Positions 1 to 64,000 of a DNA stretch of 64,000 nucleotides are shown in pieces. The stretch is from positions 480,001 through 544,000 of the forward strand of contig CAXXHO010000005.1 of assembly GCA_963667725.2 (NCBI GenBank). Direction: 5' to 3'. Made by a program: the position numbers. The DNA is from Treponemataceae bacterium (lineage in GTDB: Bacteria > Spirochaetota > Spirochaetia > Treponematales > Rectinemataceae). Position 1 is the first letter of the stretch. Every line of letters starts with the position of its first letter.

Positions 1-3000
1 AATAGCATCTATATAATTTGATAGTATTACTCTTGTACCTAATTTCTTTACTTGCTCTATATAATAATCTCTTTCTTCTTTATCCCAAATCTCTTGTGAA
101 TAAGGTAGTATCTCACTACTTCGAGCTATAGGTACTATTACTATATCAACTTTTGTTTCTTTAACGTCTTTAACAAGGTCTTCTTCAAACAGATCTCCAC
201 AAAGTAAGTAGCTATACTTTTTTGAACCTACAGAAAACTCTACTATTTTTTTGCCTTTACTATAAATATTTTTATCGGCATTTCTACCATGCCACCCATT
301 ACTTATCCTACGATAATGAGCGTTAATGTTTCCTGTGGTATTAATACATAGTACCGAATCATAGATTTTATTTTGATCTCGTTCAAGAAATCCTAAAGAT
401 ACGTAGACTCTACATTTACAAGCTATTTCTTTAATACTATTGATATATGAAGAATCTATTGAAACTGCATATTTGTAATCGTGTTCAGGATTATCATCAG
501 ATATAAATCCAGTTAAGCTTGTTTCTGGGAATATAATGAACTTGGCATTATTTGCAGCAGCTTCTTCTATGTACTGCTTAATAGTTTCAATACTATGAGA
601 AATACAAGTATCAATTCTTGGAACAACGATTGCATATTTCATACAAACATCCGTAGGATGCATCTAACATTTTCGCTTAACCTTTAAGCCCGACCTGAGC
701 GTAAGCGAAGGCTTGGCGCGATTCTTGCACCACTTTACGTTGCCGCTCCTACTTTACTGAATCTCGCAAGAAGCGTGCCAAAGGGCTTATAAGGTTGAAG
801 CGGGTGTTAGAAAGCGTTCATGTTCCTTAATACTTTTACCTGTGCAGCTTAACACTGTTAGAAAATACGCTGCATTTCAGAGAAATACCGAGATGAAATT
901 GTCAACGTTTACTTTAGGTAAATGCTGCAATGAATCTCGGCAATAAAAGATGCAGCGTATTTTCTAACATGAAATCTTACATTCTTTTCTTACATTTACC
1001 CTTTCTTTTTCTTCGAGCCATACGTCTTTCTAACATTTTCGCTTAACCTTTAAATCCGTCCTGAGCGTAGCGAAGGATTGGCGCGCATTTTGCATTGTTG
1101 TTCCTGCAAAATGCGTGTCAACAGGATTTATAAGGTTGAAGCGGGTGTTAGGCTCCTCTTTTTTCGTATTCTTCTCTTCTTATCTCTATTACAATTTCTT
1201 CTTTATCTCTGCTTATTTCTTTAAATCCATAATTCTGTAATGCCCTATATCCATTTTGATTCTTTATATCTATTCTATCTTCCATTATTTCCCCATTAAA
1301 TTCATTGAAGTAATAATGAAGTAGTAAATCTAATGCTTGTCTACCAAATCCATGATTCCTATAATTGCTTTTTATCTTTACATTGAGTCTCGCTTTCTTT
1401 TCTTCTTTATCATAATTATGAAAGCTTATCTCTCCAATACACTGATGAGTATCTTCATGCAATATCAAAAAGTACTTATTTATATCTTTATCAAGTACAA
1501 GCATTTTTTGATACCATTGAGTATATCTTTCCTCTGACAATGGTTGTATGCCTCCTACATCTTCCATTGTCTCGGGATCTTCCCATATTCCTTTTACGAG
1601 TTGCCAATCACCTTTGGTCGGTGCAACTAGTTTTATTACGCTGCCCATAAATGATTTTCTCTATTGTCTAGTGAGCCTAACATTGGCTTAACCTTTAACG
1701 CTCGTTCCCGAGCGAAGCGAGGGATTGGCGTGGTTTGTGCATTGTTGTTCCTGCACAAACCATGACAAAGAACGTTATAAGGTTGAAGCATATGTTAGAA
1801 GCTTTTTTAGGTAACTTTTGTCAATATGAATATTATAATTGATTCTACACTTTCTTTCCAATATAAAACACATACCCATAGTATTCTTTATATTTACTAT
1901 ATAATTCAGCTCCTCGCTTTTCATATTCAACAAATACTTCAGCGGATTTATTACCCTTATACTTTCTTAAAAATATTCCAGCTGCTTTTTTTTCAGCATT
2001 GAAAAAGTTATCAATCCAACAAGATTCAGGCAGACTAAAGGATGCTGTAAATATAAATCCTGCTTTTTGCATTTTAGCTATATTATTTGGAATTGTATCT
2101 ATTTCAGGATATGCGTCATTCCAAAAATCTTCGATCTCTTTTGGCCGCTCGTCTGTGAACCAAGAGGCTTCAGTAACAGCAATATAGCCTCCTTTCTTTA
2201 AGTAATTAATAAAATATTTCATTCCATTTTTAAATCCAATATTGTAAATAGCTCCTTCACACCAGATAAGATCTAATCCACCAATTTTGAAATCAAGTTT
2301 ATCCATTGATCCAATTTCGCCCTTTACTTTATCTTGAAGTTTTAATCGATCAATATTGCTATTTAGTTTCTCAATAAAACCGGAGAATAAATCAATAGCA
2401 GTAATTGTACCCGGGATGTTTTGTGCCAAGACAATTGTCTGACAACCAGTACCACATCCAAGATCGGCTACTTTTAAGGTACTGTTTAAATTATCTATAA
2501 AGCTTAGTGCTTTTAATGTAGCATCATTGCTTCCCGGCCCTTGACGTTCCATGCTTAAGAAAAATTCGCAAATCAATGAAACATCGAAATCATGAATATT
2601 AGGCTCTTCATTTCTCATTTCTTCCTCCAATGCTTCTGCATTATCATGATATTTTTATTTCACACACTATTCTTTTTAGTTATATTAGTTATTTACACAA
2701 ATGATATATTACTATTTTATCTAGCGCCGAAGGCGTCCTTCTAACATTAGCTTGACCCTTAACGCTCGCTCCTGAGCGTAGCGAAGGATTGGCGTGGTTT
2801 GTGCATTGTTGTTCTGCACAAACCATGACAAAGGGCGTTATAGGGTCGAAGCAGGTGTTAGGCATTTTTTTCTTAAGGTTTATTCCTTTATTCTATAATA
2901 TTTAGCGAGTTCTTTGTATTTATTATAATCATAATTACTTTTAATTCTTGCTTTTTCTTTAATATATTCTATATTACTTTTTAACTTTTCTGGAATTTCT

Positions 3001-63000: not shown

Positions 63001-64000
63001 AAAAGGCGTTATAGGGTTGAAGCATTTGTTAGAAATCTTCCCCTTATCTCTTTAGGTCTTAATTATTGTCTTTAATAAATCTCTTATTCTTTCTTAATTT
63101 TCTTAGAATCTTCTCTTTATTCAAAAATATCTTCTTTATTCTCGTATTTAATATAGTCTTCTCTTCTTGGGCTAAAGACTTCTATAGCTACTGAATCCTC
63201 AAGTATTTCAGCTTTATGATTAGCATTTGACAAAATTGTCCAACTATCACCAGGATGTAATACTTTAGATTTCCCATCAATAAAGAGCCTAATGCTACCT
63301 TTTACAAGATATCCAGTTTGTTCATTTATATGCTTATGTTCGGGAAGTGAAGAACCTTTTTGGAGTAAGAATTCAACAAGTAATGAATTTTCTCCATAGC
63401 TAAGAGTCTTAATGCTTATACCATGGATGATTTCTTTGTATCCATTTCTCGATGCAATGCCGAACATATGCTTTTCTCCATCATGTTGATTAATAATTAC
63501 TGCAATGAACTATAAATATTCTTCCTGCGCGGGAGCGTCTTTCTAACATTGGCTTAACCCTTAACGCCTGTTCCCGAGCGAAGCGAGGGATTGGCGTGGT
63601 TTTTGCGTTATCTTCTCGCAAAAATCATGACAAAAGGCGTTATAGGGTTGAAGCTTTTGTTAGAATTTTCACCCCAAAGAGCACTTCTTTCTTCTCTTCT
63701 CTTTAACTTATCTATTTTCTTCTTTTCGTCGTTTTTTATATGCACGTAACATGCGAGAATAAGGGAAAGACGCACCGCTTCTCTTCCCTTTTCGAGCAGC
63801 TGAACAACTAATAATTCTAACATTGGCTTAACCCTTAACGCGTACATTGGCGCGGTTTGTGCTTGCGAGCGAAGCGAGTTGCACAAACCGTGACAATAGC
63901 GTTATAGGGTTGAAGCAGGTGTTGGACGACCCTATTTAGCTGTCTATATACTTCCTAACTACATTCACTTTGCCGATTTTATAATCACTAAATCCTGATT

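What a model noticed while it worked through the whole genome (the two positions that open the first line are those of the whole stretch)
1..64000. 150-kb chromosomal integron with 166 AT-rich cassettes in a GC-rich spirochaete
A single integron (intI g02864 at 550877-552109, co-directional with its array) is followed by 166 same-strand attC sites over 150 kb (3.6% of the genome); the cassette inserts have 31% G+C (GC3 23%) in a chromosome of 56-57% G+C (GC3 72%). Boldest reading: the cassettes are not made from, nor ameliorated to, the host genome but belong to a fast-circulating AT-rich cassette pool shared by Rectinemataceae, so cassette composition is set by the pool (or by selection for AT-rich single-strand-foldable DNA), not by the host. 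New would be a Vibrio-sized super-integron in Spirochaetota outside oral Treponema and the largest host/cassette composition gap reported.
Evidence so far: nhmmer profile of the 122-nt attC: 166 non-overlapping minus-strand hits C5:399918-550000, 158 full length, plus 4 inverted ones at 396.8-406 kb beside IS copies. Median cassette 775 bp; 10 of 165 cassettes hold IS; insert GC 0.311, attC GC 0.464, flanking C5 0.574, GC3 0.233 v 0.724. NCBIfam 'integron integrase' for g02864 (table). 124 of 130 non-IS genes on the cassette strand; acetyltransferases, NUDIX, TA pairs, 46 without any match. Same attC in 10 of 68 other Rectinemataceae genomes (8 of 21 genera, own genus counted; call 28); same-genus G050 shares few cassettes. 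IS copies in the array equal copies elsewhere in C3/C5 and flanks have the host's tetranucleotide signature, so not a chim The finding spans contig positions 396815 to 552109; this window holds only 480001 to 544000 of it. [...]
(Added by a program. Inside this text positions count along the whole contig: contig position 480,001 is position 1 of the stretch shown here. "Call 12" and the like, gene names such as g00115 and contig names such as C1 are that model's own, and its searches are not shown. The text may have been shortened before it was handed on; [...] marks where a part breaks off. The agent that wrote the report below was given it as the finding of a first reader that could run no searches.)

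Follow-up and report, generated by a model that had tools for sequence, protein, structure and literature searches.

The report
Spirochaete super-integron with hairpin-tagged cassettes
This is a real, very large gene-cassette library on a spirochaete chromosome, not unique in size, whose cassettes stay AT-rich for long periods inside GC-rich hosts and mostly begin with a small conserved DNA hairpin that looks like an extra arm of the recombination site.

Summary
The array is real: an intact, co-oriented IntI, an attI and 164 attC sites over 143 kb (87 in the window), with inserts at 30% G+C in a 59% flank. It is not unique. G069 holds 226 sites over 212 kb, and contigs C1 and C7 of this mixed assembly are the same locus from sibling organisms, with wider G+C gaps. 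Fast circulation is weakly supported (one cross-genus cassette at 623/624). Cassette genes are under purifying selection (dN/dS 0.17). Homologues that kept the same cassette end differ at 45% of four-fold sites yet stay at 20% G+C there (fitted equilibrium about 0.3; host 0.6-0.97). Their attC interiors have been replaced by host-array types. New here: 488 of 608 cassettes in seven arrays begin with a hairpin just outside the R box, with a covarying closing pair, a bulged base mirroring the L arm and G..A loops on the recombining strand; oral-treponeme-type and two class 1 integron cassettes carry it too. Its function is untested. The scan had already noted the HARP-like IntI domain on contig C1.

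The parts
1..64000 (-). Middle of the cassette array: 87 attC hits and 86 complete cassettes. The array runs on to contig 408045 and 550718. The platform lies outside the window: attI (crossover G at contig 550718), intI (contig 550877-552109, minus strand, 410 aa, co-oriented, with a HARP-like N-terminal domain) and a candidate intI promoter (contig 552296-552323)
   Evidence: G+C 0.28-0.37 in every 2-kb bin; platform:
8512..8633 (-). A typical attC (about 125 nt with both R boxes): R'', L'' with extra C, second bulge, branched terminal structure, L', R'; top strand is the window's minus strand
   Evidence: bottom strand folds more stably in 157 of 160 C5 sites
8495..8509 (-). Example of the R-arm hairpin at the 5' end of the next cassette: closing pair at position 9 from the crossover G, bulged A at 10, 4-bp stem, GAA loop on the bottom strand; 47 of 86 window cassettes have such an arm
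62293..62859 (-). DUF3795 cassette gene, second copy at 51689-52255; the cassette differs at 1 of 624 bases from the first inter-attC cassette of G014 (another genus)
63117..63467 (-). Cupin cassette gene (copies at 31112-31462 and 10326-10676); family shared with C1 at about 70% protein identity with the same cassette 5' end but a different attC type
63666..63820 (-). ORF-less 154-157-bp cassette, 11 copies in the window (5' ends 63820, 58110, 57836, 55351, 54452, 53359, 42282, 37858, 33800, 33502, 16214), 12 in the array
7558..7778 (-). ORF-less 219-221-bp cassette, 4 copies in the window (5' ends 7778, 7412, 4500, 1033), 6 in the array, with a 20-bp internal inverted repeat
52524..53022 (+). 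BrnT/BrnA toxin-antitoxin cassette, antisense to the array
28013..48566 (-). Five further type II toxin-antitoxin cassettes within this stretch: 47890-48566, 37976-38616, 28801-29450, 28013-28590 (PIN toxins) and 36849-37443 (ParE-like)
48951..49604 (+). IS1595-family transposase ORF inside a cassette

Best explanation
A sedentary chromosomal integron of the Treponema 'reverse' type. IntI excises cassettes by recombining the folded bottom strands of attC sites and inserts them at attI (shown: all parts, strand-biased folding, dispersed duplicates; activity inferred from known integrons). Cassettes persist for a long time as cassettes in spirochaete arrays under purifying selection (shown). Their synonymous sites drift near an AT-rich equilibrium of about 30% G+C because the force that holds core genes at 80-95% (selection on codons or GC-biased gene conversion) acts weakly on rarely expressed, rarely allelic cassettes (equilibrium shown; cause inferred). 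Meanwhile recombination between attC repeats swaps a cassette's attC interior for a type common in the host array, while R'' and the 5' end stay with the gene (pattern shown; mechanism inferred). Most cassettes start with a hairpin that, on the single bottom strand, stacks on the R-box helix and shows an extrahelical T at the position mirroring the second extrahelical base of the L arm. Most likely it completes the R-box binding site as a duplex for IntI on single-stranded substrates (structure shown; function inferred, about even odds).
For: Integron; each cassette's 5' end pairs with its own R'' over 7 or more bases in 155 of 160 (12% when shuffled); both flanks syntenic with C7. Selection: median dN/dS 0.17 over 113 non-independent pairs. 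Equilibrium: 34 disjoint pairs at 60-90% protein identity differ at 512 of 1133 four-fold sites, 27 share 10 or more of their first 11 bases (background 6%), tip GC4 0.198, best-fit target about 0.30, target 0.85 worse by 254 log units; private changes give 0.29 (14 v 7 changes); host core GC4 0.62-0.97. A homologue of the DUF3795 gene outside any cassette, in a 61% spirochaete locus, has GC3 0.58 against 0.16. attC swap: in 27 disjoint cross-array pairs with shared 5' ends, partner attC identity has median 0.68 and best unrelated own-array attC 0.97. Arm: 488 of 608 cassettes; position 9 pairs G:C 377, C:G 33, T:A 4 of 423 dereplicated, position 10 is A in 402, L-arm bulge is A in 551 of 608; bottom loops start with G and end with A in 463 of 493; kept by both members in 30 of 34 diverged pairs, with 7 stem and 15 loop changes.
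Against: Polarised changes show an excess towards G+C (36 v 13, parsimony estimate 0.37, interval 0.26-0.55), so slow amelioration is not excluded; C7 shows GC3 rising from 0.25 to 0.335 along its array (rho 0.50, p 0.011). The likelihood model is crude (equal-input, clock, no rate variation) and the pairs are related. The hosts in which the divergence took place are unknown. Other low-G+C islands without attC exist in the genome (GC4 0.26-0.50), so AT-richness is partly a general trait of accessory DNA. The arm is missing from 59 of 160 C5 cassettes and the energy model sees no strand preference for it (-3.8 v -3.7 kcal/mol). Position 10 is also A in 105 of 115 cassettes without the arm. One cassette with the arm sits in an integron whose IntI lacks the HARP-like domain (G368). 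No IntI activity was tested.
Confidence: 0.65

Rival explanations
1. One reading: the cassettes are recent imports from a fast-circulating AT-rich pool, so their composition is a donor signature that has had no time to change.
For: One cassette is shared across genera at 623 of 624 bases; no GC3 gradient along C5, G069 or G070; homologues of the DUF3795 gene occur in many Bacillota loci; composition is flat across hosts.
Against: Near-identical sharing is rare. Homologous cassettes keep their 5' ends while 45% of four-fold sites change, and both stay AT-rich, so the composition survived long evolution as cassettes.
Confidence: 0.12
2. The cassettes do most of their evolving in AT-richer hosts (host-associated treponemes or unsampled lineages) and only visit GC-rich hosts; attC swapping hides their origin.
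For: Treponeme-type hosts with flanks of 0.35-0.40 carry the same attC family and arm; three C5 cassette genes have 63-66% homologues there; the arm motif also hits short contigs filed under AT-rich taxa.
Against: Those hosts' cassettes (GC3 0.19-0.23 in most) are still below their own flanks (GC3 about 0.35, and 0.61 in two; G347 is an exception, 0.27 v 0.24 on one flank ORF). No C5 attC is of the 63-68-nt type (range 99-152). The non-spirochaete hits are mostly short contigs that may be mis-binned.
Confidence: 0.12
3. AT-richness is made by the cassette cycle itself: cytosine deamination while the bottom strand is single-stranded, or error-prone repair after recombination.
For: At four-fold sites A exceeds T on the top strand in all seven arrays (0.49 v 0.34 in C5), as C-to-T change on the bottom strand would give; single-stranded cassette intermediates are documented (PMC12614218 passages).
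Against: G is not depleted relative to C on the top strand (0.092 v 0.077 in C5), which bottom-strand deamination predicts; cassettes spend most time integrated.
Confidence: 0.08
4. For the hairpin only: it is not an IntI arm but an mRNA 5' hairpin, a nuclease or priming signal, or a relic of cassette genesis copied from the apical half of a short attC.
For: Its sequence matches the apical stem-loop seen inside a short attC of a class 1 cassette (L319); no computed strand preference; cassettes with it have longer leaders (median start 79 v 41 nt).
Against: Fixed distance to the crossover, covarying closing pair and bulge symmetric to the L arm; G..A loops that suit the bottom DNA strand (GNA mini-hairpin stability is recalled knowledge); compensatory change inside families argues against a dead relic.
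Confidence: 0.35
5. The cassettes are silent and decaying, or the array is a chimeric assembly.
For: The assembly is a mixed bin (contamination 6.26%); some cassettes have no long ORF or short truncated ORFs.
Against: dN/dS 0.17; both flanks of the array match the two flanks of the orthologous locus on C7; IS copies in the array are 95-98% identical to copies elsewhere on C3 and C5; like arrays in G069 and G070.
Confidence: 0.03

Closest known systems
Treponema 'reverse' chromosomal integrons (Wu, Doak and Ye 2013, PMC3607928, parts 1-3 of 4 read)
   Same: intI transcribed towards attI; same attC family; strain-specific cassettes; the paper already inferred an ancestral attC of more than 100 nt
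   Different: Host outside the oral and gut treponemes, 59% G+C flank; attC 99-152 nt rather than 63-68; the paper found no integrons in other spirochaetes and, in the parts read, describes no 5' hairpin
Vibrio super-integrons (Boucher et al. 2006, PMC1382264, passages)
   Same: Size (V. vulnificus CMCP6: 219 cassettes, 151 kb, 2.9% of genome), paralogous non-coding cassettes, toxin-antitoxin cassettes, little sharing between species; gene conversion of attC was proposed there
   Different: G+C gap 2.8-5.7 points in Vibrio against about 29 here; co-oriented integrase; extra hairpin; attC replacement seen here in paired homologues rather than suggested
Spirochaetes-type attC cassettes in class 1 integrons, e.g. 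aacA1:gcuG (Ghaly et al. 2021, PMC8352920, passages)
   Same: The aac(6')-Ia/DUF3788 cassette attC matches this attC at 71%; its genes have GC3 0.24-0.27. Equating it with aacA1:gcuG is recalled
   Different: That assignment used attC models; here the cassette's 5' end also shows the arm, an independent mark (its loop does not follow the G..A rule)
attC extrahelical bases and terminal structure (established model; PMC12614218 and PMC5371416 passages)
   Same: Two bulges on the L arm, bottom strand more stable
   Different: A second bulged stem outside R', supplied by the downstream cassette, is not part of the model in the passages read
HARP domain of SMARCAL1 (PF07443, PDB 4o66)
   Same: Profile match E 0.0055; 7 of 13 IntI N-termini hit PF07443; best fold matches are MotA C-terminal domain and XPB N-terminus
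   Different: Fused to an integron integrase; the window's own IntI does not hit Pfam HARP alone; binding untested

Membership tests
Integron (complete) | IntI tyrosine recombinase with the integron-specific insertion | tested here: met
   TIGR02249 446 bits over positions 7-315, cut-off 265; catalytic residues visible
Integron (complete) | attI next to intI | tested here: met
   GTT core at C5:550718, conserved in three orthologues and complementary to the first cassette's R''; by sequence only
Integron (complete) | attC with R and L boxes, extrahelical bases and bottom-strand folding | tested here: met
   Extra C in 599 of 608, second bulge A in 551 of 608; bottom strand lower in energy in 157 of 160
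Integron (complete) | Cassettes whose own ends are complementary, genes on one strand | tested here: met
   155 of 160 against 12% shuffled; 119 of 123 genes
Integron (complete) | Pc promoter | tested here: inconclusive
   No consensus promoter between intI and attI; one upstream of intI and no terminator-like site on that strand before attI
Integron (complete) | IntI-catalysed excision and insertion | not testable with these tools
   Indirect only: dispersed 99-100% identical cassettes
Sedentary chromosomal integron | Fixed locus among core genes, shared by related species | tested here: met
   Same flanks in C5, C1 and C7 at 72-91% identity
Sedentary chromosomal integron | attC bottom strand on the leading-strand template (usual, 25 of 30 in PMC5371416) | tested here: inconclusive
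   Skew around the array is weak and changes sign
Sedentary chromosomal integron | LexA control of intI (common, not universal) | tested here: inconclusive
   A lexA-type gene is present; a conserved leader block exists but no operator was identified
Treponema-type reverse integron | [quoted passage not shown] | tested here: met
   same in C1, C7, G069, G070
Treponema-type reverse integron | IntI in the Treponema clade | not tested
   No tree built; nearest full-length relatives are spirochaete MAGs at 54-62%
HARP domain (PF07443) | Sequence and fold match of the IntI N-terminus | tested here: inconclusive
   7 of 13 members hit, best E 1.4e-5, not the window's own; PDB 4o66 E 0.0055; fold Z 5.6 at best, 3.7 to 4o66

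The most novel reading that the evidence does not exclude
Spirochaete integrons use a two-armed recombination site: each cassette's 5' end supplies a bottom-strand hairpin with an extrahelical T that turns the folded attC into a three-way junction read by IntI, possibly through its HARP-like domain. The arm, R' and R'' travel with the gene while the attC interior is exchanged for host types, so the arm records how the cassette was first built and tags spirochaete-born cassettes in clinical integrons. The arrays are also chromosomal compartments that sit at the mutational equilibrium, showing directly that host G+C richness is held up by a force from which cassettes are exempt.
Probability: 0.35. 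Interest if true: 0.82.

Novelty: new variant of a known kind. Interest (0 to 1): 0.62.

Why it matters
How cassettes are made and why attC sites in large arrays are alike are open questions (PMC5371416, PMC4889954, PMC8618304, passages); why cassettes are AT-rich was not explained in the passages read. These arrays put cassettes at 17% G+C beside core genes at 62-97% at four-fold sites, a contrast large enough to tell a donor signature from a substitution equilibrium, and they give paired examples of attC replacement. The arm is a concrete, mutable structure that extends the accepted attC model if it binds IntI, and a second marker for the origin of some aminoglycoside-resistance cassettes. 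Super-integrons of 100-226 cassettes appear to recur in environmental spirochaetes and are probably under-counted because AT-rich arrays fall out of short-read bins (inference).

Tried and rejected
Rfam: no family at gathering score in the window. PADLOC on 72 cassette proteins: only partial domain-level matches, no defence system called. Selection for foldable cassette DNA: R-box pairing median 0.92 with native and 0.94 with host flanks in 45 sites, p 0.20; cassette genes fold like synonymous shuffles, mean z -0.22 in 40 genes; rejected. My first reading of the hairpin base as a G.T wobble was replaced by a Watson-Crick pair plus bulge. Replication orientation: inconclusive. Parsimony polarisation is biased towards the rare state in both data sets and was not relied on alone. 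HARP-arm co-occurrence outside spirochaetes: too few cassettes to judge (partial output; 0 of 2 sites in L025). Phage carriage: the arm pattern hits 1 stretch in viral contigs, without this attC. The fold search gave no match above Z 5.6. Three paralogous integrons in one organism: rejected, since whole contigs are syntenic at species-level distance. Rows dropped before counts: inserts of 1.5 kb or more and those not starting with TT, cassettes without a full attC call (7 of 167 in C5), host triplets with GC4 under 0.6, L025 from the alignment. Only 80 of the array's ORFs (window plus the first cassettes) were scanned with Pfam, one per repeated family in most cases.
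Full report
OBSERVATION. The window is G000:C5:480001-544000 and runs at 28-37% G+C throughout. A repeat of about 122 nt recurs every 785 bp at the median. A profile built from it finds 168 minus-strand hits on C5, 87 in the window, and none on the reversed genome. Three sites are cut in two by an IS and one hit lies 8 kb beyond the rest, which leaves 164 sites in the contiguous array, 142,674 bp from attI. The repeat is an attC whose top strand is the window's minus strand: extra C in L'' in 599 of 608 sites from seven arrays, a second bulge in 551, bottom strand lower in energy in 157 of 160 C5 sites. 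Each cassette's 5' end pairs with its own R'' over at least 7 bases in 155 of 160, against 12% after shuffling. IntI passes TIGR02249 (446 bits, cut-off 265), points towards attI, and attI is at contig 550718. Inserts have 0.299 G+C, attC 0.463, the flank 0.589; GC3 is 0.215 against 0.689. The 80 ORFs scanned are acetyltransferases, NUDIX hydrolases, methyltransferases, six toxin-antitoxin pairs, IS and unknowns.

The assembly has three intI, and 38 attC on C1, 34 on C7, 27 on C3. C1, C2, C4, C6 and C7 align colinearly with parts of C5 at about 65-90%; C7 carries both flanks of the same locus. These are sibling organisms in one bin. That confirms the locus as sedentary and gives two natural comparisons. 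The C3 clusters have no intI.

NOT THE EXTREME. IntI over cut-off occurs in 44 of 401 genomes of the phylum searched. G069 has 226 sites over 212 kb with inserts at 0.291 in flanks of 0.57-0.60; G070 has 106 at 0.285. C1 shows 0.314 against 0.647; L006 and L029 show 0.31-0.33 against 0.64-0.67 on about 1.5 kb each. Treponeme-type hosts with 63-68-nt attC and flanks of 0.35-0.53 have cassettes at 0.27-0.325 on 1-13 cassettes each. Across 12 related arrays the slope of cassette on host G+C is 0.08 (p 0.19). In Vibrio the gap is 2.8-5.7 points and the longest array then known had 219 cassettes (PMC1382264); that cassettes are AT-rich is stated as known (PMC11014356). So the gap is large against those figures but is a trait of the group.

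WHY AT-RICH. Decay is excluded: median dN/dS 0.17 in 113 non-independent pairs. Fast exchange is rare: of 123 C5 genes, none has a 95% match in C1, C7, G069 or G070, one in G050 and two (copies of one cassette, 623 of 624 bases) in G014 of another genus. Long residence is shown by 34 disjoint pairs at 60-90% protein identity: 27 share 10 or more of their first 11 bases (background 6%), 512 of 1133 four-fold sites differ, yet G+C there is 0.198. A simple non-stationary model puts the target near 0.30 and rejects 0.85 by 254 log units; private changes in close families give 0.29 on 21 events. Host core genes have GC4 0.62-0.97. One homologue outside a cassette, in a 61% spirochaete locus, has GC3 0.58 against 0.16. 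Against a strict equilibrium: parsimony gives 36 AT-to-GC and 13 GC-to-AT changes (0.37, interval 0.26-0.55), C7 gains GC3 towards its tail, and islands without attC are AT-rich too (GC4 0.26-0.50). Selection for foldable DNA found no support. I infer that cassettes sit near the AT-biased mutational equilibrium and escape what keeps core genes GC-rich; that bacterial mutation is AT-biased and that gene conversion or codon selection oppose it is recalled knowledge, not from a call.

attC REPLACEMENT. In 27 disjoint cross-array pairs under 90% identity with shared 5' ends, the two attC interiors are 0.68 identical at the median, while each is 0.97 identical to some attC on unrelated cargo in its own array (0.92 in the partner's array); own beats other in 42 comparisons and loses in 8; R'' is the same in 20 of 27. 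Within arrays, 17 of 140 near-identical cassette pairs have attC under 0.90. Best-match values are inflated by taking a maximum. Gene conversion of attC was proposed for Vibrio; here it is seen pair by pair, which means attC homogeneity need not imply that the host made the cassettes.

THE R-ARM HAIRPIN. Counting from the crossover G, positions 1-8 pair with the cassette's own R'' end. Position 9 avoids that partner (G:C in 4 of 423) and pairs instead with the base after a 3-7-bp stem: G:C 377, C:G 33, T:A 4 of 423 dereplicated starts; position 10 is an unpaired A in 402, a T on the bottom strand. The L arm has the same layout: nine pairs, then a bulged A (486 of 608 pass the full test). Loops read G..A on the bottom strand in 463 of 493 (GAA 258); at control offsets of 25-100 nt such hairpins occur in 0-2%. 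By the strict rule 488 of 608 cassettes carry it, 101 of 160 in C5, 47 of 86 in the window; both members keep it in 30 of the 34 diverged pairs, 7 with a changed stem and 15 with a changed loop, 14 of these still G..A. It is in 38 of 48 starts in treponeme-type loci, and one variant of it hits at least 119 stretches in the genome collection, the largest share spirochaetes, 58 of 82 distinct ones behind an attC-like stem (80 loci examined). The aac(6')-Ia/DUF3788 cassette and an unnamed cassette in class 1-type arrays on plasmids have it. Counts are of related sequences, not independent events. The energy model gives no strand preference, and A at position 10 is as common without the arm (105 of 115). 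My reading is an extra duplex arm for the IntI monomer on the R box; RNA, priming or relic roles remain open.

IntI N-TERMINUS. About 65 residues resemble HARP: PF07443 in 7 of 13 relatives, PDB 4o66 at E 0.0055, model pLDDT 81, fold matches Z 5.6 or less. The scan had noted this on another piece of the assembly (e1-7898699). A link to the arm is a guess; G368 has an armed cassette beside an IntI without the domain.

PRIOR WORK. Read: PMC3607928 parts 1-3 of 4. Passages only: PMC4889954, PMC8352920, 10.1101/2022.02.06.479319 (49), 10.1101/2025.06.18.660453 (51), PMC11551772, PMC5737381, PMC1382264, PMC4909258, PMC11014356, PMC8618304, PMC5371416, PMC12614218, PMC9410878, PMC6557892. Searches for the hairpin, for a family-level report (102), for surveys (17, 75), for composition (44, 47, 56) and for the HARP fusion (103) listed no description of the arm or of such arrays; most listed papers were not opened. 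No supplement was opened; the data sets of the IntegronFinder, Loot 2017 and Ghaly 2021 papers may list large spirochaete arrays, and the original T. denticola papers were not seen.

VERDICT. A true super-integron of a known kind, ordinary in size for its group, with three features worth following: a conserved hairpin arm, a measurable AT-rich equilibrium inside GC-rich chromosomes, and attC replacement. Interest 0.62.

Noticed in passing
G000 contigs C1, C2, C4, C6, C7: Syntenic with parts of C5 at about 65-90% identity; the assembly mixes at least three related organisms, so other findings on these contigs may not belong to the C3/C5 organism.
   Followed up: yes
L244:1687-2571 (C5:409687-410571), third cassette from the array's far end: An intact 294-aa XerA-like tyrosine recombinase gene, antisense, carried as a cassette. 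Orthologues at 68-73% are the last cassette of the G070 array and lie 6 kb beyond the last attC in G069; more distant ones occur outside arrays.
   Followed up: partly
C5:458131-459990, 418427-420286, 406026-407885, 400018-401875, 432328-434187; C3:522340-524199: A 1.9-kb IS with a 551-aa DDE transposase has 6 of its 10 copies inside attC sites, 5 at the same inner hairpin; an attC-targeting IS (IS1634-like is a recalled label).
   Followed up: partly
window 7558-7778, 7194-7412, 4280-4500, 813-1033 (minus): The 220-bp ORF-less cassette holds a 20-bp inverted repeat whose ends read like R boxes in reversed order; no match in other loci held at that point.
   Followed up: no
window, 11 copies of the 155-bp ORF-less cassette: Clustered in the attI-proximal half; copies vary at a possible extended -10 element near the 5' end; a promoter cassette is plausible but untested. 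G069 and G070 have their own 243-bp repeated short cassettes.
   Followed up: no
inside attC, e.g. window 8543-8559: An inner hairpin with tandem G-A mismatches and a GNA loop occurs on the bottom strand (105 of 160 in C5; the related motif 0 times on the top strand in five other arrays).
   Followed up: partly
G000:C3:352943-359549, 503165-528637, 604054, 1636345-1653906: Clusters of 27 attC without intI; ends partly degraded, genes still AT-rich, several larger than array cassettes.
   Followed up: partly
L001:8215-8265 (leader of intI): A block of about 45 bases between the promoter and the start of intI is conserved in C5, C1 and C7; possible operator or RNA element.
   Followed up: no
G000:C3:3853-4629: A ComEC-type competence gene is present, compatible with cassette uptake as single-stranded DNA.
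   Followed up: no
L086-L165: The arm motif with AT-rich cassettes appears on short contigs filed under Bacteroidota, Bacillota and archaea; probably mis-binned spirochaete arrays, which could affect taxonomic claims about integrons.
   Followed up: no
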